In this document: positions 1-12,751 of the stretch, piece by piece
Layout of the letters: each line of letters opens with the position of its first letter
Position numbering within the stretch: position 1 is the stretch's first letter
From: a virus
Taxonomy: Duplodnaviria; Heunggongvirae; Uroviricota; Caudoviricetes
Direction: 5' to 3' (one strand)
DNA: 14,641 nucleotides
Virus record (IMG/VR): IMGVR_UViG_2675903658_000001
Program-made: the position numbers and the translations under genes
Notes under the pieces: model-generated
The model's database searches: none
The model's input: only the letters and a program-made list of their open reading frames with translations
What the model was told of the DNA's origin: nothing

Positions 1-172
1 GATGCCGGGCCTCCTCCCGGGTCACGGAAAGCGTCACCCTGTATGTTTTCAGGTCAGCATTCAGCCCTGCCGCCATACGCTGTGAGTACCCGTCACCAAA
101 ACGCACTTCACGCACCGATGGCTGCGAGTTCACCTCCATATCCGGCTTCACTTTCCAGCGAAAGGTTTTCAT
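1..172 (-). CDS. M: Minor tail protein M, second copy; only the first ~57 codons are in the window, gene continues past the left edge
   Basis: Minus-strand ATG at 172-170 overlaps the stop of the H-fragment (ATGA). Nt 1-172 are identical by eye to 5628-5799, the 5' end of the complete M gene. Translation begins MKTFRWKVKPDMEV. Confidence 0.8.
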   Translation of the reverse strand, partial: MKTFRWKVKPDMEVNSQPSVREVRFGDGYSQRMAAGLNADLKTYRVTLSVTREEARH

Positions 173-690
173 CGACCGCTCCCTGATAACAGACCGCCAT
201 CACGCAACTGCAGCCGGAGTTCATCCTGTGCCCCCTTGCGGGCCATGTCATACACCGCCTTCATCAGCTGCGACCCCGCCTGTCCGTTGATACCGTCGTT
301 CTGAATCACCACGTGATTGTTCTGATTAAAATTAATGCCTTCGGCCCGCCGCATCTGCGCCGGACTTCCGGCAGCACCCACATACCCCCCTTCCGCATAG
401 CCCCGCATCAGGCGGTACAGGTTCCCGACACCAATCCGGCTGGTTGCCTCCTTCGTGAAGACAAACTCCCCGCGGTGGACAATCCCCGCTGGCTCATATT
501 TGCCACCGGTTCCCGTAAATCCCCCGGTCGCGAAATGGAAGTTCGCCGCCGCAGCCTGAATGGCTGTACCGCCTGACGCTGATGCGCCGCCACCGGTAGC
601 CCCGCCAATGGCGCTGCCGATACTCCCGACAATCCCCACCATTGCCTGCTTAAGCAGAATTTCTGTCATCATGGATTTTTGTCGTGACAT
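169..690 (-). pseudogene. Tape measure protein H, C-terminal fragment (173-aa ORF equal to the last ~170 residues of H); likely remnant
   Basis: Six-frame ORF 169..690; the protein aligns with the C-terminus of the full H at 5796..8375 at roughly 93% identity, with no indels (1-675 colinear with 5628-6302). The ATG at 690-688 lies inside the 95-bp repeat and has no obvious Shine-Dalgarno. Confidence 0.7.
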
Positions 691-770
691 AAGAATAATT
701 ATCTATAGTTGATCTTCGTAACGCTCCCGCAGCTCCGCAACTCTGCGGGATTTTTTTATTCTTTTTACCC
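676..770 (+). repeat. Copy A of a ~95-bp element (candidate sRNA body plus terminator), direct repeat of 3350-3450
   Basis: Aligned by eye to 3350-3450 at roughly 85% identity. Both copies start at TTTTTGTCGTGA and end at GGGATTTTTTTATTCTTTTTACCC, and both begin (on the minus strand) exactly at the GGG-TAA that ends the upstream tail gene. Confidence 0.8.
725..765 (+). terminator. Intrinsic-terminator-like hairpin plus T-tract on the plus strand (copy A)
   Basis: Stem cccgcag (726-732) pairs with ctgcggg (743-749), 10-nt loop, followed by TTTTTTTATTCTTTTT (751-766). Confidence 0.55.
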
Positions 771-3101
771 AATCCGGCTCCCCTGGACAGTCCACTGACT
801 GCCGGTCCCCAGATAACGGGCAGATTTTTCCACCTGTGCCGTGTTCGTGATGCGTTTTTCTGAGAACCAGAATTCAAACTGTACCGTCGGGTCATACACC
901 GCAAGACGCGGGACCGCCGTTATCTGAAAATACCCCGGCGTCAGCTCAATGGTGGCGGGTTTTGCAGGCGCGTTAATCCGGAAGGTGGTGGTCGCAGGTT
1001 CGCCCTGCTGGCCGTAGCTGTTAATGGCCCGCACCGTCAGGGTGTATTCCCCCAGCGGCAGACCACTGAAACGGTGCTCCGTGTCTGCGGTGATGGCGGT
1101 GCTCACCAGACGGCTGTCTTCTCCGCTTCCGCTGGTCAGACGCAGACTGAAGCGCACACCCTTCACCACCCGCGGCGTGTCCCATTTCGCCTGTGCCAGA
1201 TACTGACCGTCAGCTGCACTCACCTCCACCGTCAGGTGCTGCACTGCCGGTGGGATAACGCTGTTCAGGCTGCCTGACTGCGGCTCAAAGCTGGCCCCGT
1301 TATCCACAATGGCTTCTTTTTCCGGTACGTGCTGCACCGCCGTGATGGCGAACGTGCCGTCCGTGTTTTCCCGAATGGAGACACAGCGGAACAGGCGACG
1401 ACGCAGTGACGGCAGGGAGAGTCCCCACACACCGTATGTCTCCACACCATCCGGCAGGGTGCTGACCTGTATCCGGTCAGGCGCGGGGTGTGCGGTGATG
1501 GCCACGCTCGCCGGCTTACCGCTGCCGTTAATCAGATTAACAGTGGCCGTGCCGGTCTCCGGCAGTGTCACCTCCCGGTCCAGCGTCAGGGTACGGCTGG
1601 CGGCATCGATGGACAGGACACGTCCGCCGGTCATGGTCCCGGCATAGTCGTTATCACAGATTTCAATGATGTCACCGGGTGTGTGACGCAGCCCCTGTGA
1701 CCCGAGCGTGAAATCCACCGTCTGCGTTTCCAGCAGTTCGGTCTTTATCACCCACAGCCCGGCACGGTGGGCCTGACCGCGGCTGGTACAGCCGAACGCG
1801 TCCATCTTCAGCAGGTTGCGTCCGTAGCGCAGTATGGCTTCCGGGTCTTCCACCAGTTCCGTGGAGGTCTGCCAGCCGTTCTGCGGGTCGGTGTAATTCA
1901 CCTCCACTGCCGTGTGCCGGTCCTTCAGGGCACTGAAGCTGTAGCGGAAACCCACGCCGTTATCATCCACCACCACATCGCTGTTGGTGTACGGCCACAC
2001 CACATCCGACGGACGGTCCTGAACGAACGTCAGCGTCTGGCCGTTCCATACCGGCATACAGCGCATCGCAGAGCAGAAATCACTGAGAACGTCCCACGCC
2101 TTACGCTGTTGTGCCAGGTACGCATTAAAGGTCATCCGCGGCTCGGTCCCCCCGAAACCATCCGGGACCGTCTGGTCGCAGTACTGCCCGATGGCATACA
2201 GCGCCCACTTGTCCACATCCGCCGCCCCCAGACGTTTTCCCATGCCGTAGCGCGGGTGAGTCAGCATGTCCCACAGACACCAGGCCGGGTTGTTGCTGTA
2301 TGCCGGTTTCAGGCTGCCGTCCCAGATACCACTGTACGTGCGTTTTTCCGGGTCATAGTTTGACGGCACCTGGATGATGCGACCGCGGATATGGTAGTTC
2401 ACCGTCATCTGCTGGCCGCCGAACTGCTCCGCATCCACCTGCAGCCCCACAATGGCCGTGTTCGGGTAGCACTGTTTCACATCGATGATTTCGGTGTATG
2501 ACGACCACAGCGTCTTATTCTGCAGCTGGTCCGTGGTGCTGTCCGCCGTCTCCCTGACCATCCGGATGTTAAAGGGCCGGGGAGGCAGATTATCCAGAAT
2601 CACCGAGGCCAGGAACTGCGAGGTGGTCTTGCCGTTAATGGTGACATCCTTTTCCGTCACCCAGCGGCCATTACGCTGTAACTGAATCAGAATCCGGACA
2701 GAGGAAGGATTACGGTCGCCCTTTGACGTGGTCTGCACCAGTGACTGCACCCCGAAGGTAACCCGCAGGCGGTCAATGTTCGCGGACGTAATGGTGCGCG
2801 TCACCGGTTTTGCCTTCGTCACTTCCACGCCCAGTCCGGTTTCAGCTCCGGAGGACTCAAAGCCTTCCGGTGGTGTCTGCTCCTGCTCCCCGGCACGCCA
2901 GACCGCAGTCACACCGTGTATCACGGGATTACCGTCCGTGTCCGTCAGCGGGGTTTTGTTCACCAGAATACTCTGCAGTCCCTTCACCGGACCTTCTATC
3001 GGTCCCTCACCAATCGCATCAATCACACTCATCATCTGCGTGGATTTGAGATTATCCTTCGCCTCACGAGGCGTGTGTGCCTTACCGCCACCTTTTCCCA
3101 T
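765..3101 (-). CDS. J: Tail tip / host-specificity protein J, N-terminal ~765 residues only; C-terminal receptor-binding part missing
   Basis: 778-aa ORF starting [22 protein letters not shown], matching lambda J residue for residue over much of its length as I recall it. RBS AGGGGAAGG 4 nt upstream. Similarity ends after ...RYLGT, then ~12 unrelated residues and a stop at the repeat junction. Lambda J is about 1132 aa. Confidence 0.85.
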
Positions 3102-3204
3102 ACAGCCTTCCCCTGAATAAATTAACCGCCACTTGCCATTCCGTACAGAAGTCGGATATCCTTCGCCCGAAAAGCATGAAACACATTTCTGCCATGCTAA
3201 AGAG

Positions 3205-3240
3205 AAACCCCGGTATCAGCAGATACCGGGGTTTTCTTTC
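3205..3240. terminator. Bidirectional intrinsic-terminator-like hairpin in the I-J intergenic insert
   Basis: Perfect 10-bp stem ccccggtatc (3208-3217) / gataccgggg (3222-3231) with loop agca, flanked by AAA on the 5' side and TTTTCTTTC on the 3' side, so it is followed by a U-rich tract on both strands. Confidence 0.65.
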
Positions 3241-3306
3241 ATGCCCACCGATAATCCTGTTGGTTAAAACCGGTAATGGCATAAAAATTCTGAATATCTT
3301 CACATT

Positions 3307-3334
3307 TTCACAAACTGACTGTGGCGCGTATAAT
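3307..3334 (+). promoter_or_regulatory. Near-consensus sigma70 promoter, antisense to the tail operon
   Basis: -35 TTCACA (3307-3312), 16-bp spacer, perfect -10 TATAAT (3329-3334); predicted start near 3341. It lies in the AT-rich insert, not in coding sequence. Confidence 0.55.
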
Positions 3335-3340
3335 TTCTCT

Positions 3341-3440
3341 GCGTTAATTTTTTTGTCGTGATATAAGAATAATTCCTTACACTTAATCTTCGTAACTCTC
3401 CCGCAGTTCCTGTCCGCGATCACTGCGGGATTTTTTTATT
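3341..3440 (+). ncRNA. Candidate ~100-nt small RNA, antisense to the 3' end of gene I
   Basis: Runs from the predicted start to the intrinsic terminator: 9-bp stem tcccgcagt (3399-3407) / actgcggga (3422-3430) then TTTTTTT (3431-3437). No plausible ORF. The body is conserved in the second copy at 676-770. Confidence 0.45.
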
Positions 3441-3450
3441 CTTTTTACCC
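3350..3450 (+). repeat. Copy B of the ~95-bp element, direct repeat of 676-770
   Basis: See copy A. Here the element abuts the stop codon of I (TAA at 3447-3445 on the minus strand). Confidence 0.8.
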
Positions 3451-4125
3451 CTGCCGCCCGATAACCACGACCTTTCCGCCCCCGCCTTCATCACGGGTGC
3501 TGATGTCCTGGGATATACGGCGGGAGCCAACCAGCATTTCCCCGTAAGGCACCGGCATCGGGTTCCCCTGGGCAATCATGTTATCCAGCGAGGAAAAGTA
3601 CGTGTTCTGTCTGCCGTTATCCGTTGCGCGGTAATCCGGTGTTTTTGCCTTCGGGGCCAGCATCTGGGCCACACCGCCCAGTATCATGCTGGCCCCCAGT
3701 GAAAACAGCATCGTGGTGGCAGAAAAACCGCCGGCACTCAGGGCTGTACCCCATAACACCATCGAGGCACCGGCCGTGAAGAAAGAGCCCACGATGGCTG
3801 CCGCCCCCAGCACAATCTGCAGTCCGCCCTTTCCGGCTCCGGCCAGTCGCGGCACAATGTGGATGACCGTTCCCTCACCCAGCTGTTCGTGAAGACGGGC
3901 GTACACCGCCTCCGGTGCCGTGTCATCACCGGCAATACGTATCTGGTACCAGCCTTCGTTCATCTGACGGCGAAAGCCCGGCACCTGTAACGACAGGGCA
4001 CGGATGGCTTCCGCTGCCGTGTTCACATACAGGCTGAGGCGGCGGCCAAATCGTTGCAAATCCCCGTGAAGGCAGATGCGTGCCAGTGGCGGTGACGCCA
4101 GACAGAATGCGTTCGTCGTTGCCAT
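3445..4125 (-). CDS. I: Tail tip assembly protein I (ubiquitin-like N-terminal domain family)
   Basis: 226-aa ORF starting MATTNAFCLASPPLARICLHGDLQRFGRR, lambda I-like. The start lies ~100 nt inside the 3' end of K in another frame, as in lambda. Confidence 0.9.
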   Translation of the reverse strand: MATTNAFCLASPPLARICLHGDLQRFGRRLSLYVNTAAEAIRALSLQVPGFRRQMNEGWYQIRIAGDDTAPEAVYARLHEQLGEGTVIHIVPRLAGAGKGGLQIVLGAAAIVGSFFTAGASMVLWGTALSAGGFSATTMLFSLGASMILGGVAQMLAPKAKTPDYRATDNGRQNTYFSSLDNMIAQGNPMPVPYGEMLVGSRRISQDISTRDEGGGGKVVVIGRQG

Positions 4126-4766
4126 TTTTCGGAATACCTCTCCCGTTTACTCAGTTGTTCAGGAATATGGTGCAGCAGCTCGCCGTCACCACAGTAAATG
4201 GCGGCATGATTCGGCACCGATGAACCAAAACAGCACAGCAGCACATCGCCCGGCTGCGCCGCTGACAACGGCACCTGATACAGCCCTGTGGCCTCCAGAT
4301 TATCAAGATAGAGATTCTGGCCGTTACGCCACCAGTCATCCTCACGATGAAAGTCCGGCATCTCAGTCCCCGCCAGATGGTAAGCGTCCCGGAACAGCGT
4401 GTAACAGTCCGTCACCCCGTGCTCAAAGCGCCGCCCGGTGAGATGCGGCACACAGCGGAACTTATGAATCGCCCCCCGGCAGACCAGCCACCACGGCAAA
4501 TCACTCTGCACCTGCAGCCGCCGGTCGGCCTCACTCAGCCAGGGCAGACCACCGGGATGACTGTGGACCAGCGCCACAATCTCACCCTGCATCTCTGCCC
4601 GCAGCCAGTCTTCCGGTGCAATACGAAAATACGCCTCCGGCTCTGCAGAGATATTCACACAAGGGATATACCGCTCCCCCTCCGGCGTTCTCACCACTAA
4701 GCCGCACGACTCCGCAGGCACACACCGCCGGGCATGCGCCAGAATCGCTGATTCTGTCTGTGTCAT
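4023..4766 (-). CDS. K: Tail tip assembly protein K (JAB/MPN metalloprotease-like plus NlpC/P60 peptidase-like domains)
   Basis: 247-aa ORF with a JAMM motif HSHPGGLPWLSEAD and an NlpC/P60-type Cys/His region (GVTDCYTLF ... NHAAIY). It starts 5 nt after the L stop with no strong SD, so the true start could be an internal Met. Confidence 0.88.
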   Translation of the reverse strand: MTQTESAILAHARRCVPAESCGLVVRTPEGERYIPCVNISAEPEAYFRIAPEDWLRAEMQGEIVALVHSHPGGLPWLSEADRRLQVQSDLPWWLVCRGAIHKFRCVPHLTGRRFEHGVTDCYTLFRDAYHLAGTEMPDFHREDDWWRNGQNLYLDNLEATGLYQVPLSAAQPGDVLLCCFGSSVPNHAAIYCGDGELLHHIPEQLSKRERYSEKWQRRTHSVWRHRHWHASAFTGICNDLAAASACM

Positions 4767-4771
4767 TGGAT

Positions 4772-5470
4772 TTACTGCGAAAGTTTATTAATGGAAAGGA
4801 AACCGCCAAAATTAGCCACCATGCCGCGCATCTCACACCCGCGCATGCACTTGCTGCATCTGTCCTTACGGATATCCGTGGTGGGGTTGTCGAACTCATC
4901 CGCCACCGCAGGACCGTTATACCCGCATTCATCTCCCCGGTAATCCCACATACAGGTGTTCGCCAGCATGATGCGACCGGGAAACAGCGCCCCGTCCGTC
5001 TCGGTCGGTGTAGCCAGCACAAACGAGGCCGTCATGGCTGTCAGCTGCGACATCTGCTCCACCACCCAGCGGTCACTCAGCTCCTGCTCCGGGTCCGCCT
5101 CCGGATTGCCCGCAACGAAATTCACCGCATCCAGAAAACGGGCATACACCCGGCGGCGGACCACCGTGGCCCCCACCAGACTCTGCAGGTCTTCCGCCAT
5201 CCCGGTGACCAGACCGAACAGATTGGACACCGTCAGCGACGGTCTGGCACTGCTGCCCCGGCCGTTCATCTCAAAGCCGCTGCCGTCAATCGGGTATGCC
5301 TCATACTTACGCCCCTGCCAGGTGACCGGCTCCCCTTTTTCATTCAGCTCATTACAGAAAAAATACCGCTCACCGCCCTGTACCGTCAGGTCGATTTCCC
5401 AGAGTACCACCCGCGGTGACTGCTCTGACTTAACCGACTCGTTCAGACTTTCTTCGCGAATATCCTGCAT
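4772..5470 (-). CDS. L: Minor tail protein L
   Basis: 232-aa ORF, MQDIREESLNESVKSEQSPRVVLWEIDLT..., lambda L-like with the same length. Its start overlaps the M stop (TGATG). Confidence 0.93.
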   Translation of the reverse strand: MQDIREESLNESVKSEQSPRVVLWEIDLTVQGGERYFFCNELNEKGEPVTWQGRKYEAYPIDGSGFEMNGRGSSARPSLTVSNLFGLVTGMAEDLQSLVGATVVRRRVYARFLDAVNFVAGNPEADPEQELSDRWVVEQMSQLTAMTASFVLATPTETDGALFPGRIMLANTCMWDYRGDECGYNGPAVADEFDNPTTDIRKDRCSKCMRGCEMRGMVANFGGFLSINKLSQ

Positions 5471-5799
5471 CAGTTCACCACCTGCTTAAACTCCGCGCTG
5501 AACTCAACGCGCAACATCCCGACCCGCGCAGACCACCCGGCACAGGTCACCTTTATCTGCCGGTATGCATAGGGTGGCTTCCACAAAAATGCCTTCCAGC
5601 CCCCGTGCTCTGCCAGGAACGCTTCCAGATGCCGGGCCTCCTCCCGGGTCACGGAAAGCGTCACCCTGTATGTTTTCAGGTCAGCATTCAGCCCTGCCGC
5701 CATACGCTGTGAGTACCCGTCACCAAAACGCACTTCACGCACCGATGGCTGCGAGTTCACCTCCATATCCGGCTTCACTTTCCAGCGAAAGGTTTTCAT
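5470..5799 (-). CDS. M: Minor tail protein M
   Basis: 109-aa ORF, MKTFRWKVKPDMEV..., lambda M-like with the same length. ATGA overlap with the H stop. Confidence 0.93.
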   Translation of the reverse strand: MKTFRWKVKPDMEVNSQPSVREVRFGDGYSQRMAAGLNADLKTYRVTLSVTREEARHLEAFLAEHGGWKAFLWKPPYAYRQIKVTCAGWSARVGMLRVEFSAEFKQVVN

Positions 5800-8375
5800 C
5801 CACCGCTCCCTGATAACATACCGCCATCACGCAACTGCAGCCGGAGTTCATCCTGTGCCCCCTTGCGGGCCATCTCATACACCGCTTTCATCAGCTGCGG
5901 CCCTGCCCGCCCGTTGGGGCCGTCGTTCTGAATCACCACGTGATTGTTCTGATTAAAATTAATGCCTTCCGCCCGCCGCATCTGCGCCGGACTTCCGGCA
6001 CCGCCGACATAACCACCTTCCGCATAGCCCCGCATCAGGCGGTACAGATTGCCGACACCAATCCGGCTGGTCGCCTCCTTCGTGAAGACAAACTCCCCGC
6101 GATGAACAATCCCCGCAGGTTCATATTTACCCCCCGTCCCCGTAAATCCCCCGGTCGCGAAATGGAAGTTCGCCGCCGCAGCCTGAATGGCCGTCCCCGT
6201 GGAGGCAGACGCACCACCACCGAAAGCACCGCCAATGGCGCTGCCGATACTCCCGACTATCCCCACCATCGCCTGCTTCAGAAAAATCTCTGTCAGCATG
6301 GACAGCACAGAACGGGTGAAACCACGCCAGTTCTGTTCGCTGCCGGTCAGCATCGCTGCCATATTCTGTGCAATACCGTCAAAGGTCTGCGTGGCAGCAC
6401 TTTTTACCTGCGACATACTGTCCGTGGCACTCTCTTCCCACTCACTCCAGCCGGACCTGAGGCCTGCCATCCAGTTCCCGCGAAGCAGGTCTTCAGCCGC
6501 CCAGGTCTTTTTCTGCTCTGACATGACGTTATTCAGCGCCAGCGGATTATCGCCATACTGTTCCTTCAGGCGCTGTTCTGTGGCTTCCCGTTCTGCCTGC
6601 CGGTCAGTCAGCCCCCGGCTTTTCGCATCAATGGCGGCCCGTTTTGCCCGTTGCTGCTGTGCGAATTTATCCGCCTGCTGCGCCAGCGCGTTCAGGCGCT
6701 CCTGATACGTAACCTTGTCGCCAAGTGCAGCCAGCTGGCGTTTGTACTCCAGCGTCTCATCTTTATGCGCCAGCAGGGATTTCTCCTGTGCAGACAGCTG
6801 GCGACGTTGCGCCGCCTCCTCCAGTACCGCGAACTGACTCTCCGCCTTCCACAAATCCCGGCGCTGCTGGCTGATTTTCTCATTCGCTCCGGCATGCTTC
6901 TCCAGCGTCCGGAGTTCTGCCTGAAGCGTCAGCAGGGCAGCATGAGCACTGTCTTCCTGACGATCGCCCGCAGACACCTTCACGCCGGACTGTTTCGGCT
7001 TTTTCAGCGTCGCTTCATAGTCCTTTTTCGCCGCCGCCATCAGCGTGTTGTAATCCGCCTGCAGGATTTTCCCGTCTTTCAGGGCCTTATTCAGCTCTTC
7101 CTGCCGGTCAGTATATTTCTCCAGTGGCGTCAGCAGACGCTCATACGCCTTCTGCGCCTCTCCGGTATACTTCAGCTGTGACGCCTCACGCTCAGCCCGG
7201 TCCCTTGCCGCCAGTTCACCGGCTTTTTCCATATCCGACTGCAGCGTGGCCGCTGCCAGACCCAGACGGGCATTTTCCCGGTCATCCCATGCCCCCTGAA
7301 GGTTCGCACGAAAAGAGGAGGTCTTTCCCCGGCGCTGGCTCCGGCTCTGGTACCACTGCCATTTTTTATCCGCCTCATCAAATGCCTTCTGCGCACTGGC
7401 GAGCATATCCGCTGAGGATTCCGGACGACCGATATCCAGAATGGCATCCCACATCGATTTGAATGCCTTCCCTGTTTTATCCGCCCAGGTCTCCAGTGTT
7501 CCCATGTTTTCTTTCAGGCGACGGGTCTGCTCATCAAAGCCTTTCGTGGCGATATCGTTCGCCGCCTGTAAGGCTCCGGCCTCGTCTCCGGAACGCTGCA
7601 GTTGTGCAACATACGCAATCTGCTCTGCCGTCACGTTACGAAACTGGCGCGCCATCGCCATCAGTCCCGACGTCGGGTCAGTGGTCAGCTTCCCGAAGGC
7701 TTCAGCGACTTTATCCACCTCCACACCGGATGCAGACGCAAAACGCGCGACACTCTGGTTGATGGCATCAAACTGTTCACCACCACGCACACCGGCATTC
7801 ACCAGGGCTGCCAGTGACTCTCTCGCCTGGTTAAACGTCAGCCCTGCTGCCTGCCCGGCTCTTGAGAGAGTCAGCATACGATCGGCAGTCAGTCCGGACT
7901 GATTACCGGAAAGAACCAGGGTTTTATTAAACGCTGAAAGCGTGGAATCTCCCTGGTACCAGGCGTACACCAGCGCACCTGTCGCCACCGCCAGCGAGGT
8001 GACCCCGACCATCGGCAGGGTGATCGCACCGGCAAGCCCCCTGAACATGGGGATCATCCCGCCGAAGGAGTCCTTCACCTGACCGCCCTGTTGCAGCAGG
8101 ATCAGCCAGGGATTCTGACCACCGGCAAGCTGCGTGGCGATATCCGTAAACTGTGCGGGCAGGGTTCGCATGGCCGCTTTATACTGCCCGACGGAAATCC
8201 CTGCTTTTTGTGCAGCCAGCGCCTGGCGGCTCAGGCCCTGTTCAACAGCACTGGCGGTTTTTCTGGCGTCGGTATCCAGACCTGAAAAATGACGCCTTAC
8301 CCGGCTCATCTGCTCATCGAAACGGACAGCATCCAGACTAAGGTCAATAACAAGATCACCAACCGGCTGGGACAT
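5796..8375 (-). CDS. H: Tail tape measure protein H
   Basis: 859-aa ORF, MSQPVGDLVIDLSLDAVRFDEQMSRVRRHFSG..., lambda H-like (about 853 aa in lambda). RBS GGGAGG 8 nt upstream. Gly-rich hydrophobic C-terminal segment. Confidence 0.95.
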   Translation of the reverse strand: MSQPVGDLVIDLSLDAVRFDEQMSRVRRHFSGLDTDARKTASAVEQGLSRQALAAQKAGISVGQYKAAMRTLPAQFTDIATQLAGGQNPWLILLQQGGQVKDSFGGMIPMFRGLAGAITLPMVGVTSLAVATGALVYAWYQGDSTLSAFNKTLVLSGNQSGLTADRMLTLSRAGQAAGLTFNQARESLAALVNAGVRGGEQFDAINQSVARFASASGVEVDKVAEAFGKLTTDPTSGLMAMARQFRNVTAEQIAYVAQLQRSGDEAGALQAANDIATKGFDEQTRRLKENMGTLETWADKTGKAFKSMWDAILDIGRPESSADMLASAQKAFDEADKKWQWYQSRSQRRGKTSSFRANLQGAWDDRENARLGLAAATLQSDMEKAGELAARDRAEREASQLKYTGEAQKAYERLLTPLEKYTDRQEELNKALKDGKILQADYNTLMAAAKKDYEATLKKPKQSGVKVSAGDRQEDSAHAALLTLQAELRTLEKHAGANEKISQQRRDLWKAESQFAVLEEAAQRRQLSAQEKSLLAHKDETLEYKRQLAALGDKVTYQERLNALAQQADKFAQQQRAKRAAIDAKSRGLTDRQAEREATEQRLKEQYGDNPLALNNVMSEQKKTWAAEDLLRGNWMAGLRSGWSEWEESATDSMSQVKSAATQTFDGIAQNMAAMLTGSEQNWRGFTRSVLSMLTEIFLKQAMVGIVGSIGSAIGGAFGGGASASTGTAIQAAAANFHFATGGFTGTGGKYEPAGIVHRGEFVFTKEATSRIGVGNLYRLMRGYAEGGYVGGAGSPAQMRRAEGINFNQNNHVVIQNDGPNGRAGPQLMKAVYEMARKGAQDELRLQLRDGGMLSGSGG

Positions 8376-9240: not shown

Positions 9241-9993
9241 TTACCCTGCAGCGCCCGCTTCAGTAACGGTGACTTCAGCCACTGCGGCGAACTGACCATT
9301 TCCGCTCACCACAGGGATCTGCACCTTACCTGTCGCCACGCCGTTTACCGTAATTGTCATATCTTTCACACTAATGGTGGCTTTCGACGGATCGGCGGAA
9401 ACCGCTCTGAACGTCTTGTCGGTTGCACTTTCCGGCTCAAAAGAAACCGTCAGGGTGGTTGTTTTCCCTTTTGCCACCGTACCGGATGTCGGCGTCACCT
9501 TAATCGCACTGACCGGCGTAATTTTGCTGCGTTCTTCCGCTACAGAAGGTTTACCCACGTTAGTGACTTTCACCGTGCGGGTGATCACTTCTTTCGCCGT
9601 CACGGCCTTACCGATACTGCTGACCCAGCCACGAAACACATCCACCGTGCCATTCGGAAAACGGATTTTATAGGCCCGGACATCGCCGCTTTCAAACCAG
9701 CCTATAAGCCCTTTCTGACCTTCCTCTCCCGGTTTCCAGGCCAGCGTAAAACTGGTATCACCTGCAGATTTCTGTCCCTGCCCGGTCGCGGTCCAGTCCG
9801 CGTCTTCATCATCCAGGTAGTTATCATCGTAGGGTTCTGCCGTCATCTCGCCCGGCGTCAGATCCTTCACCTTAGCCAGTCGCTGCCAGTCATCGTCTGA
9901 CAACGGGTTTGCATAAGCATCACCCTTGCCGTTGTAAACCCACAGAGTGGTACCGGCACCTTTTACCGGCTCAAGGGGATTTGGTGTTGCCAT
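9241..9993 (-). CDS. V: Major tail tube protein V with a C-terminal Ig-like domain
   Basis: 250-aa ORF, lambda V-like. RBS GAGGA. The C-terminal ~90 aa are Thr/Val-rich beta-strand sequence typical of the Ig-like decoration domain. Confidence 0.93.
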
Positions 9994-11722: not shown

Positions 11723-12751
11723 TTATTTCACCTGTACCACCACAAACTCATCCGGATCCGGCAGCACCATCAGCGGTGCGGACTGCGTCATGGTGAATTC
11801 ACGGGCCGGATCGCCCACAGTCAGCCAGTGTTTCGGATAACGGGAAGAGGCCACCACACCTTCGGACAACGCCTGCGCATCCTGAATGGCACCATAGCAA
11901 CGAATGCCCTCTGCTGCCGTATTCCCCAGGACCAGTGTGCCCTCCGGCAGATAACGTTTTTCGGTACCGTCCTCTGCCACATAAGACGTTTTCGCCACCA
12001 CAATGGCCAGATCGCCGTAATACCCCTTGAAGGACACCACTGCGCCCAGGTCTTTCACTGCCGTTTCGAGTTGTGAATTTGAGCCGCGACGGGTATCCAG
12101 TTTTTCGCGGAACAGCTTAAAGCCATTCAGCAGACGCCAGACCGTACCGTCCATAATGGCGATATTCACAAGGCCGCTGGCCTGATCGCAGTAGAGGTCA
12201 ATATCATGCGTCGGATCAAACGTATCACGGTCCTGCTCAGACCATTTTTTACCGTCAGCCTGCTCAATGTTATTTCCTTCAGAGCGCCCGAAATCCACCT
12301 CGACAGTATCAAACTGATCCCCTTCCATGGTGTATTTGCCATACAGCACGGCATTCACCGCCTGCATTTCTTCCACCTGGACAATGGCGTGCTCTTCCTG
12401 TTTGAGGTTATCGGTAATGATACGCAGACGACGGTAGGCTGGGTCGTTCAGCTGAGCCGGATCTTCACCAGGAAGGCGCTCAACCGCCTGCTGGTAATTA
12501 AATTCGTGTTTGGGCTTGACGTAGCCCGGACGTAACACGCGGGTTTCACCACCGCGATGGCGAAGCACTTTTCCTTCAACGATCGGGGAGACATAGGCCG
12601 CCACCGGCGTTTTTCCGGTAATTTTGTCCAGCATCACCTCTTCGGTGTGGAAATTCACCGTGCGGCGGAAAAACAGCTCCAGAAACAGCGCACGGAATTT
12701 AACTTTTTGTTCGGTATAACCGAGTAACTGGCGGGTCGTAAACAATCCCAT
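11723..12751 (-). CDS. E: Major capsid protein E
   Basis: 342-aa ORF, MGLFTTRQLLGYTEQKVKFRALFLELFFRR...SAPLMVLPDPDEFVVVQVK, lambda E-like (341 aa in lambda). RBS AGGA 8 nt upstream. Confidence 0.96.
   Translation of the reverse strand: MGLFTTRQLLGYTEQKVKFRALFLELFFRRTVNFHTEEVMLDKITGKTPVAAYVSPIVEGKVLRHRGGETRVLRPGYVKPKHEFNYQQAVERLPGEDPAQLNDPAYRRLRIITDNLKQEEHAIVQVEEMQAVNAVLYGKYTMEGDQFDTVEVDFGRSEGNNIEQADGKKWSEQDRDTFDPTHDIDLYCDQASGLVNIAIMDGTVWRLLNGFKLFREKLDTRRGSNSQLETAVKDLGAVVSFKGYYGDLAIVVAKTSYVAEDGTEKRYLPEGTLVLGNTAAEGIRCYGAIQDAQALSEGVVASSRYPKHWLTVGDPAREFTMTQSAPLMVLPDPDEFVVVQVK

What the first reader, a model, noticed from the sequence alone, without database searches (positions are those of the whole stretch)
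169..690. Tape-measure C-terminal fragment remains a clean 173-codon ORF with a new start codon
Despite about 7% nucleotide divergence from the full H, the fragment has no frameshift or stop, and a start codon is supplied by the repeat at the junction. It encodes the Gly-rich hydrophobic C-terminal region of the tape measure, which in lambda is implicated in DNA passage across the envelope. If expressed, a free copy could plausibly interfere with an incoming phage, but the lack of an SD argues for a silent remnant. The purifying-selection appearance may simply reflect its origin in a functional H gene.
Basis: inference. Interest (0 to 1): 0.4.

Follow-up and report, generated by a model that had tools for sequence, protein, structure and literature searches.

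The report
Accidental tape-measure fragment ORF at scaffold join
The open reading frame is really in the sequence, but it is an unselected by-product of a junction on a 770-base contig island in a badly scaffolded draft E. coli prophage region, so it is most likely an assembly artefact and otherwise a brand-new silent remnant, not a gene.

Summary
The ORF 169-690 (minus strand, 173 codons) exists as described. It has five junction-derived codons followed by the last 168 codons of a lambda-type tape measure protein (lambda gpH 686-853, 82.7% identity).

The clean frame needs no selection. The H/M' segment, window 1-675, is 100% identical to intact full-length H genes in 17 complete E. coli genomes. 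The dN/dS of 0.11 against the window's own H therefore compares two functional alleles.

The ATG lies in a 95-bp promoter-less copy of the prophage sRNA gene pasB, read antisense. It has no Shine-Dalgarno sequence and no called promoter.

The window comes from draft scaffold KQ087876.1 (GCA_001030435.1).
- The record has an N exactly at window 771, the "truncated J | 95-bp piece" junction.
- A 365-N gap abuts window position 1.
- A second single N 8 kb away separates two perfect 1,230-bp copies of sequence that is single-copy in the reference prophage.

The ORF thus sits on a 770-bp contig island. The one internal junction (675|676) is a blunt end-to-start join of a 2,952-bp segment. That fits either a mate-pair circularisation chimera or a tandem duplication.

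Neither junction occurs in 5,426 complete E. coli genomes or in the other collections searched. Interest is low.

The parts
169..690 (-). The 173-codon ORF (H'). It reads MSRQK from junction DNA, then 168 codons equal to the C-terminus of a lambda-type tape measure protein. GenBank calls it from ATG672 as the 167-aa protein KLX44692.1.
   Evidence: (lambda gpH 686-853, E 9.7e-82)
1..675 (-). Segment of an AR_0086-type prophage: H codons 692-859 plus stop, then the first 172 nt of M, whose start overlaps the H stop (ATGA). It is 100% identical to NZ_CP032201.1 69561-70235. Window position 1 is the last base before a 365-N gap in the source scaffold.
676..770 (+). 95-bp piece: the last sense codon (GGG) and the TAA stop of gene I, plus a promoter-less copy of the sRNA gene pasB (body about 680-757, terminator hairpin 734-749 followed by a T-run). 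It is 100% identical to the I-J spacer of the AR_0086-type prophage (67284-67378) and to L002 12967-13061. Its antisense strand supplies the ATG.
675..676 (.). Junction 2. A blunt end-to-start join of a 2,952-bp segment (reference 70235 | 67284) with no microhomology.
770..771 (.). Junction 1. Position 771 is N in the public record KQ087876.1, which marks a contig boundary. There is no microhomology.
765..3101 (-). Apparent truncated J (778 aa). It is J codons 1-776, cut inside the second Ig-like domain, and it ends on the borrowed gene-I stop codon. It is produced by the contig join.
3102..3444 (+). Native I-J spacer carrying the resident pasB allele: promoter TTCACA-16-TATAAT at 3307-3334, body about 3354-3437, terminator at 3413-3437. 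This allele has ATA where the junction copy has ATG.
5796..8375 (-). Full-length H of the window's prophage (859 aa; Pfam TMP_2 and Tape_meas_lam_C). Positions 5628-6302 are the paralogue of window 1-675.

Best explanation
The ORF is an accidental junction ORF with no function, and most probably it does not exist as such in the cell.

The strain carries two closely related lambdoid prophages. Type A is the window's main body. Type B is AR_0086-like. Large tracts of A and of the type-B reference (AR_0086) are identical: J codons 1-776, the start of M, and most of the head and tail-shaft region.

The draft assembler laid the B-specific path (H C-terminus, M, L, K, I, pasB, J and onward) after the A path. 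It used a single-N join, which here marks a negative gap or unmerged overlap. The result looks like 'truncated J followed by an H fragment'.

The 770-bp contig that holds the ORF begins with exactly 95 nt of the B-type I-J spacer joined bluntly to H codon 692. This is the end of a 2,952-bp segment ligated to its own start. That is the expected look of a read crossing the circularisation junction of a roughly 3-kb jumping (mate-pair) library fragment. The 95 nt equal K-1 for a K=96 graph.

The frame is open because the H part is an unmutated copy of an intact H allele. The ATG is a chance triplet on the antisense strand of pasB.

Shown: the sequence identities, the N and the gaps, the duplicated overlap, the junction geometry, and the absence of SD and promoter. 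Inferred: that the junction comes from library or assembly chemistry rather than from the chromosome.
For: - Source and Ns. L002 (KQ087876.1) equals the reverse complement of the window, except for an N at window 771. A 365-N run starts right after window position 1, where the true distance in the reference prophage is 253 nt.
- Second single N. At L002 18111 it separates two 100%-identical 1,230-bp copies of sequence that is single-copy in AR_0086. Single-N joins in this scaffold are therefore unmerged contig overlaps.
- Overlapping alleles. Contig 1 covers AR_0086 locus 14606-4707 and contigs 2+3 cover 10236-2237. They overlap by about 5.5 kb as two alleles at 93-97% identity.
- Precedent for two prophages. 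Genomes with two such prophages at separate loci exist, for example UID2309220036 and E5.
- Junction 2. It is blunt, same-strand, end-to-start, 2,952 bp, with a 95-nt flank. PMC3483553 describes how jumping libraries co-ligate fragment ends.
- Rarity. Neither junction is found in 5,426 complete E. coli genomes, the phage collection, GTDB representatives, IMG/VR or JGI metagenomes.
- No decay. There are 0 differences from intact H in 17 genomes.
- No expression signals or domain logic. No SD and no promoter. The breakpoints fall mid-domain in both H and J.
Against: - No reads were available, so junction 2 could be a real adjacency.
- Assemblers normally discard single chimeric reads, so the junction needed repeated support. 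PCR duplicates of a jump library or real DNA could both supply that.
- The assembler and library type of GCA_001030435.1 were not verified. ALLPATHS-LG, K=96 and roughly 3-kb jump fragments are from my own knowledge and from the pattern of Ns.
- In AR_0086 the B-type H already differs from type A about 200 nt upstream of the breakpoint. A pure allele-path start would therefore be expected further upstream.
Confidence: 0.6

Rival explanations
1. The junction is real. It would be a very recent tandem duplication, or a complex illegitimate recombination between two co-resident prophages. One version is a 2,952-bp tandem duplication in the B-type prophage, running from H codon 692 to 89 nt past the I stop. 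Another is a roughly 5.6-kb duplication with a templated 95-bp insertion. In both cases the H fragment is a silent, unselected remnant. It would be transcribed only as read-through of the late operon on induction.
For: - The end-to-start geometry is equally the signature of a tandem duplication.
- A K-1 flank is what a real novel junction would also show in a de Bruijn contig.
- The junction survived assembly.
- Independent chromosomal H C-terminal remnants with foreign N-termini exist, for example P0035 on an 856-kb contig.
- The antisense pasB terminator is not followed by a T-run on the minus strand, so late transcription would read through.
Against: - There is zero microhomology at either junction.
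- Junction 1 is an N in the record.
- The same scaffold shows a proven duplication artefact at its other single N.
- The arrangement is unique among all collections searched.
- A 3-5.6 kb direct repeat at 93-100% identity would be unstable in a recombination-proficient host (inference).
Confidence: 0.33
2. The ORF is a functional gene. It would make a free gpHC-like protein. That protein might compete for gpI or the tail tip, either poisoning tail assembly or interfering with DNA entry of incoming lambdoid phages. Alternatively it might supply gpHC in trans.
For: - The fragment starts at lambda residue 686. This is within a few residues of where the natural cleavage product gpHC is thought to begin, about 690.
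- The ATG is in frame.
- A 5-of-6 -10-like hexamer, GATAAT, lies 7 nt upstream of the ATG and could give a leaderless mRNA (read from the sequence).
Against: - No SD, no -35 or extended -10, and no promoter called.
- The arrangement is not conserved anywhere.
- No substitution has accumulated since an intact H, so there has been no time for selection.
- No defence-family match.
- The breakpoint cuts the Pfam Tape_meas_lam_C domain, which spans 633-707 of H.
- The locus is unreliable in the record.
Confidence: 0.03
3. The 95-bp piece was inserted through an RNA intermediate. On this reading it is a cDNA of the abundant PasB sRNA captured at a break.
For: The piece (676-770) contains the whole PasB body (about 680-757) without its promoter.
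Against: - It runs 13 nt past the terminator U-tract, into the gene-I stop codon.
- It starts 4 nt before the RNA-seq-mapped 5' end and about 9 nt after the start predicted from the -10 hexamer. Its ends therefore do not match transcript ends.
- No reverse transcriptase was seen in the window.
Confidence: 0.01

Closest known systems
gpHC, the C-terminal proteolytic fragment of the lambda tape measure protein gpH (PMC12617516; PDB 8IYK, 8K35, 9E7M)
   Same: It covers the same residues: lambda 686-853, 82.7% identity. It includes the last roughly 32 residues that bind the gpI trimer in the tail tip.
   Different: gpHC is made by cleaving full-length gpH inside an assembled tail. Here the same residues would have to be translated on their own, from a chance ATG with five extra residues and no ribosome-binding site. 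Nothing shows that this happens.
Truncated tape-measure remnants and 'partial' TMP ORFs in E. coli assemblies
   Same: Dozens of 100-300 aa proteins match the same C-terminal region. Most are contig-end partials. A few are chromosomal remnants with foreign N-termini, such as P0035.
   Different: This one has no decay at all. Its upstream partner is a piece of the same prophage type rather than IS or host DNA.
Unmerged contig overlaps and haplotype-in-tandem artefacts in scaffolded short-read drafts
   Same: A single-N join is followed by sequence that repeats what came before. This is proven for the 1,230-bp perfect repeat at L002 18111. The same layout holds for contig 1 against contigs 2+3, which overlap by 5.5 kb at 93-97% identity.
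   Different: The internal pasB|H' junction is not explained by scaffolding alone.
Circularisation-junction chimeras of jumping (mate-pair) libraries (PMC3483553 for the principle)
   Same: The join is same-strand, end-to-start and blunt. The fragment is kilobase-sized (2,952 bp). The flank is no longer than one read (95 nt).
   Different: The library type of this assembly was not verified. A tandem duplication gives the identical junction.
PasB, a prophage-encoded Hfq-dependent sRNA of E. coli E2348/69 (PMC8550237; bioRxiv 10.64898/2026.05.13.724894)
   Same: The I-J spacer of the window and the 95-bp junction piece carry pasB alleles. The position between tail assembly protein I and J is the same. 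The published Northern probe matches 20 of 23 nt. A promoter and a U-rich terminator are present in the native copy.
   Different: The junction copy lacks the promoter. The alleles differ in the 5' half from the E2348/69 sequence.
Superinfection exclusion acting on tape-measure-mediated DNA entry (for example HK97 gp15; from my own knowledge)
   Different: There is no homology, no membrane-protein gene context and no defence-family hit. The resemblance is purely hypothetical.

Membership tests
Lambda-type tail tape measure protein (gpH) | Sequence homology to the gpH C-terminal region | tested here: met
   phmmer against PDB 8iyk_H: E 9.7e-82, query 6-173 aligned to gpH 686-853. PHROG tape-measure families match at their C-terminal ends.
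Lambda-type tail tape measure protein (gpH) | Full-length architecture (N-terminal TMP_2 domain, long helical ruler, complete Tape_meas_lam_C domain) | tested here: not met
   Pfam finds no family in the 173-aa product. In the full H, TMP_2 spans 54-256 and Tape_meas_lam_C spans 633-707. The fragment starts at residue 692, inside the latter domain.
Expressed bacterial protein-coding gene | Ribosome-binding site upstream of the start codon | tested here: not met
   Anti-SD duplex energy is +0.4 kcal/mol for ATG690, ATG672 and ATG669, against -5.6 to -11.6 for H, M, L, I, J, E and the ORF at 9241-9993.
Expressed bacterial protein-coding gene | Own promoter, or conservation of the gene arrangement in other genomes | tested here: not met
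   No sigma-70-like site on the minus strand in 1-3600. The junction is absent from every collection searched. The exact 173-aa product is not on record.
Gene under purifying selection as a free-standing ORF | Substitutions accumulated since the truncation, with dN/dS well below 1 | tested here: not met
   There are 0 substitutions relative to intact H in 17 complete genomes. The dN/dS of 0.11 is between two intact alleles.
Anti-phage defence / superinfection exclusion protein | Match to a known defence family | tested here: not met
   PADLOC best hit has E 0.068 and 9.8 bits.
Assembly / scaffolding artefact | Gap characters or contig ends at the novel adjacency | tested here: met
   N at window 771 (L002 9902). 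A 365-N run lies next to window position 1.
Assembly / scaffolding artefact | Demonstrable false duplication at another join of the same kind in the same scaffold | tested here: met
   A perfect 1,230-bp repeat flanks the single N at L002 18111. That sequence is single-copy in AR_0086.
Assembly / scaffolding artefact | Lack of read support for junction 675|676 | not testable with these tools
Tandem duplication (real) | End-to-start junction of a contiguous segment on the same strand | tested here: met
   Reference 70235 | 67284, a 2,952-bp segment. The same geometry fits a mate-pair chimera, so this feature does not discriminate.
Tandem duplication (real) | Doubled coverage and spanning reads | not testable with these tools
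   No reads are available.
PasB sRNA gene (for the 95-bp piece and the native spacer) | Sequence match to published PasB, position between I and J, promoter and intrinsic terminator | tested here: met
   The probe and coordinates come from PMC8550237 table S. The E2348/69 locus lies between the tail assembly protein and gpJ. Alignment is, the promoter and terminator, the fold. The junction copy lacks the promoter.

The most novel reading that the evidence does not exclude
The junction is real, and the ORF is translated during late-operon read-through or from a leaderless transcript. The product would be a free gpHC-like protein. It would bind gpI or the tail-tip initiator and either poison tail assembly of related phages or block their DNA entry. 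That would be a prophage-encoded, tape-measure-derived interference factor.
Probability: 0.02. Interest if true: 0.5.

Novelty: not a real feature. Interest (0 to 1): 0.06.

Why it matters
It matters mainly as a caution. A tidy ORF with apparent purifying selection and a new start codon can come entirely from laying two prophage alleles in tandem in a draft scaffold, plus one chimeric or very recent junction.

If the junction proved real, it would at most be a fresh, unstable duplication inside a prophage. The one biologically suggestive point is that the fragment nearly equals the natural gpHC cleavage product, whose function is still unknown. That point rests on a single unconserved junction.

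The side observation has more substance but is already described. The I-J spacer of this prophage family carries the sRNA gene pasB, antisense to the tail operon.

Tried and rejected
- Insertion sequence or transposon at the junction. The filler is not foreign DNA. It is 100% identical to the I-J spacer of the same prophage type.
- Microhomology-mediated or site-specific recombination. There is no shared base run at either junction.
- Frameshifted J. ORFs 3082-3423 and 765-3101 at first looked like a split J. J really starts at 3101, after a 340-bp spacer, as in AR_0086. The 113-aa ORF has no Pfam hit and overlaps pasB antisense.
- RNA-templated origin of the 95 bp. The ends do not match transcript ends.
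- Known RNA family for the spacer. Rfam gave nothing relevant. The identification came from the published PasB probe and coordinates.
- Exact-protein look-ups of the 173-aa and 778-aa products found nothing. The 167-aa version starting at ATG672 found the source scaffold.
- Pattern scans for both junctions in GTDB genomes, for junction 2 (675|676) also in IMG/VR and JGI metagenomes, found nothing.
- The assembly accession is not mentioned in the paper library. The ALLPATHS-LG paper could not be read, so K=96 and the library design remain unverified.
- Structure prediction and the representative-protein search were not used. The homology is unambiguous.

Full report
**1. What is in the window**

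All genes of interest run on the minus strand and form the late region of a lambdoid prophage.
- Major capsid protein: 11723-12751.
- Full-length tape measure H: 5796-8375, 859 aa, with Pfam TMP_2 and Tape_meas_lam_C.
- M: 5470-5799. L: 4772-5470. K: 4023-4766. I: 3445-4125.
- A 340-bp spacer follows I.
- J starts at 3101.

The ORF named in the finding is there: 169..690, minus strand, 173 aa, ATG start.

An ungapped alignment puts window 675..1 against 6302..5628. That region is the last 168 codons of H, the stop codon overlapping the M start (ATGA), and the first 172 nt of M.

The H-coding part differs from the window's own H at 49 of 507 nt (90.3% identity), giving 11 amino-acid changes in 168. 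The M part is identical. For H alone the figure is 9.7%.

**2. Why the frame is clean**

Nei-Gojobori dN/dS between the fragment and the window's H is 0.11 (dS 0.34, dN 0.038). This is not selection acting on the fragment.

Window 1-675 is 100% identical to the corresponding part of intact, full-length H and M genes in 17 complete E. coli genomes. One example is AR_0086, NZ_CP032201.1 69561-70235. The comparison is therefore between two functional H alleles.

Since the fragment separated from an intact gene, no substitution has accumulated. There has been nothing that could have broken the frame and nothing for selection to act on.

**3. The start codon and the "repeat"**

Bases 676-770 (95 nt) are a copy of the DNA just downstream of gene I. 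They include the last sense codon of I (GGG) and its TAA stop.

The spacer carries a small transcription unit on the opposite (+) strand.
- Promoter: TTCACA-16-TATAAT at 3307-3334.
- Terminator: an intrinsic terminator with U7 at 3413-3437.

The published Northern probe and coordinates for the prophage sRNA PasB identify this unit as pasB. PasB is 83 nt, at E2348/69 1466343-1466261, between tail assembly protein I and gpJ (PMC8550237 table S).

The 95-bp piece holds a second pasB allele (body about 680-757) without its promoter.

The ORF's ATG (688-690) is a chance triplet on the antisense strand of the PasB 5' region.
- In its native place it opens a 6-codon mini-ORF, MSRQKN*.
- The window's own pasB allele has ATA at that position.

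Expression signals are lacking.
- There is no Shine-Dalgarno sequence. Anti-SD duplex energy is +0.4 kcal/mol for ATG690, ATG672 and ATG669, against -5.6 to -11.6 for most real genes here.
- No sigma-70-like promoter is called on the minus strand.
- A -10-like GATAAT lies 7 nt upstream of the ATG, but it has no -35 or extended -10.

**4. Where the window comes from**

Exact-protein look-ups of the 173-aa and 778-aa products found nothing. The 167-aa version starting at ATG672 found NCBI GCA_001030435.1, scaffold KQ087876.1 (L002; protein KLX44692.1).

The reverse complement of the window matches L002 base for base, with one exception. L002 9902 is N where the window has A (+ strand) at 771. 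That position is exactly the join between J codon 776 and the 95-bp piece.

Window position 1 is the last base before a run of 365 N. After that gap the scaffold continues with L (from about codon 33), K, I, pasB, a full 1,230-aa J, and lom.

A second single N, at L002 18111, separates two 100%-identical 1,230-bp copies that include lom. That sequence is single-copy in the reference prophage. Single-N joins in this scaffold are therefore contig ends that overlap but were not merged.

In reference coordinates:
- contig 1 covers AR_0086 locus 14606-4707;
- contigs 2+3 cover 10236-2237.

These are two overlapping alleles of one prophage type, 93-97% identical over the overlap. They have been written one after the other.

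Differences between the window's main body and AR_0086 are confined mostly to 3251-6500. Complete genomes with two such prophages at separate loci exist, for example UID2309220036 and E5.

So the "truncated J" (778 aa, cut inside the second Ig-like domain) and the apparent tandem layout are best read as scaffolding products.

**5. The one junction that scaffolding does not explain**

Junction 675|676 lies inside the 770-bp contig (95 + 503 + 172 nt).

Relative to the AR_0086-type prophage, it joins position 70235 to position 67284 on the same strand. This is the end of a 2,952-bp segment joined to its own start. The join is blunt, with no microhomology.

Two processes give exactly this junction.
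- A tandem duplication.
- A read that crosses the circularisation point of a kilobase-sized jumping (mate-pair) library fragment (principle in PMC3483553).

The left flank is exactly 95 nt. That equals K-1 for a K=96 de Bruijn graph and is shorter than a 101-nt read. I could not verify the assembler or the libraries; that part rests on my own knowledge and on the pattern of Ns.

Neither junction is present in:
- 5,426 complete E. coli genomes;
- the phage collection;
- GTDB representatives;
- IMG/VR;
- JGI metagenomes.

I put about 0.6 on an artefact and about 0.33 on a real, very recent rearrangement.

**6. What the product would be**

The H-derived part aligns to lambda gpH 686-853 with 82.7% identity.

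According to the Ur-lambda structure paper (PMC12617516):
- gpH is cleaved into gpH* (residues 1 to about 690-710), which forms the trans-envelope channel;
- the other product is gpHC (about 690-853);
- the last roughly 32 residues of gpHC sit as a trimer on gpI in the tail tip, and the function of gpHC is unknown.

The fragment is thus close to a free gpHC.

A break within about 25 residues of the cleavage region has roughly a 6% chance. That figure is post hoc, and I give it little weight.

The breakpoint cuts the Pfam Tape_meas_lam_C domain. No defence family matches. PHROG hits are all C-terminal ends of tape measure families.

Similar short C-terminal tape-measure ORFs are common in E. 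coli assemblies. Most are contig-end partials, and a few are chromosomal remnants with foreign N-termini.

**7. Verdict**

The ORF is an accidental product of a junction in a mis-scaffolded prophage region. At best it is a brand-new silent remnant. More likely it is not a feature of the living genome. The decisive test is read-level support or PCR across 675|676.

Noticed in passing
window 3102-3444 (+ strand unit: promoter 3307-3334, body about 3354-3437): The 340-bp spacer between tail genes I and J, absent from lambda, carries the Hfq-dependent prophage sRNA gene pasB, antisense to the tail operon. It has a near-consensus promoter (TTCACA-16-TATAAT) and an intrinsic terminator. The identification rests on the published probe and coordinates (PMC8550237). 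Rfam has no matching family.
   Followed up: yes
window about 3200-3232: A strong 10-bp GC-rich hairpin, CCCCGGTATC-TGCT-GATACCGGGG, is flanked by T/A-rich runs on both strands. It lies between the pasB promoter and the J start and looks like a bidirectional terminator inside the late operon. The consensus scan did not list it.
   Followed up: no
L002 16881-19341 (KQ087876.1, downstream of the window): A perfect 1,230-bp tandem repeat that includes lom is split by a single N. The sequence is single-copy in AR_0086. It is an unmerged contig overlap, so the annotated second lom and the two small ORFs there are artefacts.
   Followed up: yes
window 3251-6500 against NZ_CP032201.1: Nearly all differences from the AR_0086 prophage cluster in one 3.3-kb mosaic patch: the H C-terminus, L, K, I and pasB, with M identical. 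J codons 1-776 and most head genes are identical or nearly so. The patch allele is 99.9% identical to prophages in strains SFAD3 and E5.
   Followed up: partly
   Followed up: yes
protein search, (P0013, P0021, P0030, P0034 and others): Hundreds to thousands of 'partial' tape-measure proteins in E. coli drafts begin within a few residues of H residue 680-690. Short-read contigs apparently often break there, probably at a common mosaic or repeat boundary between co-resident lambdoid prophages.
   Followed up: no
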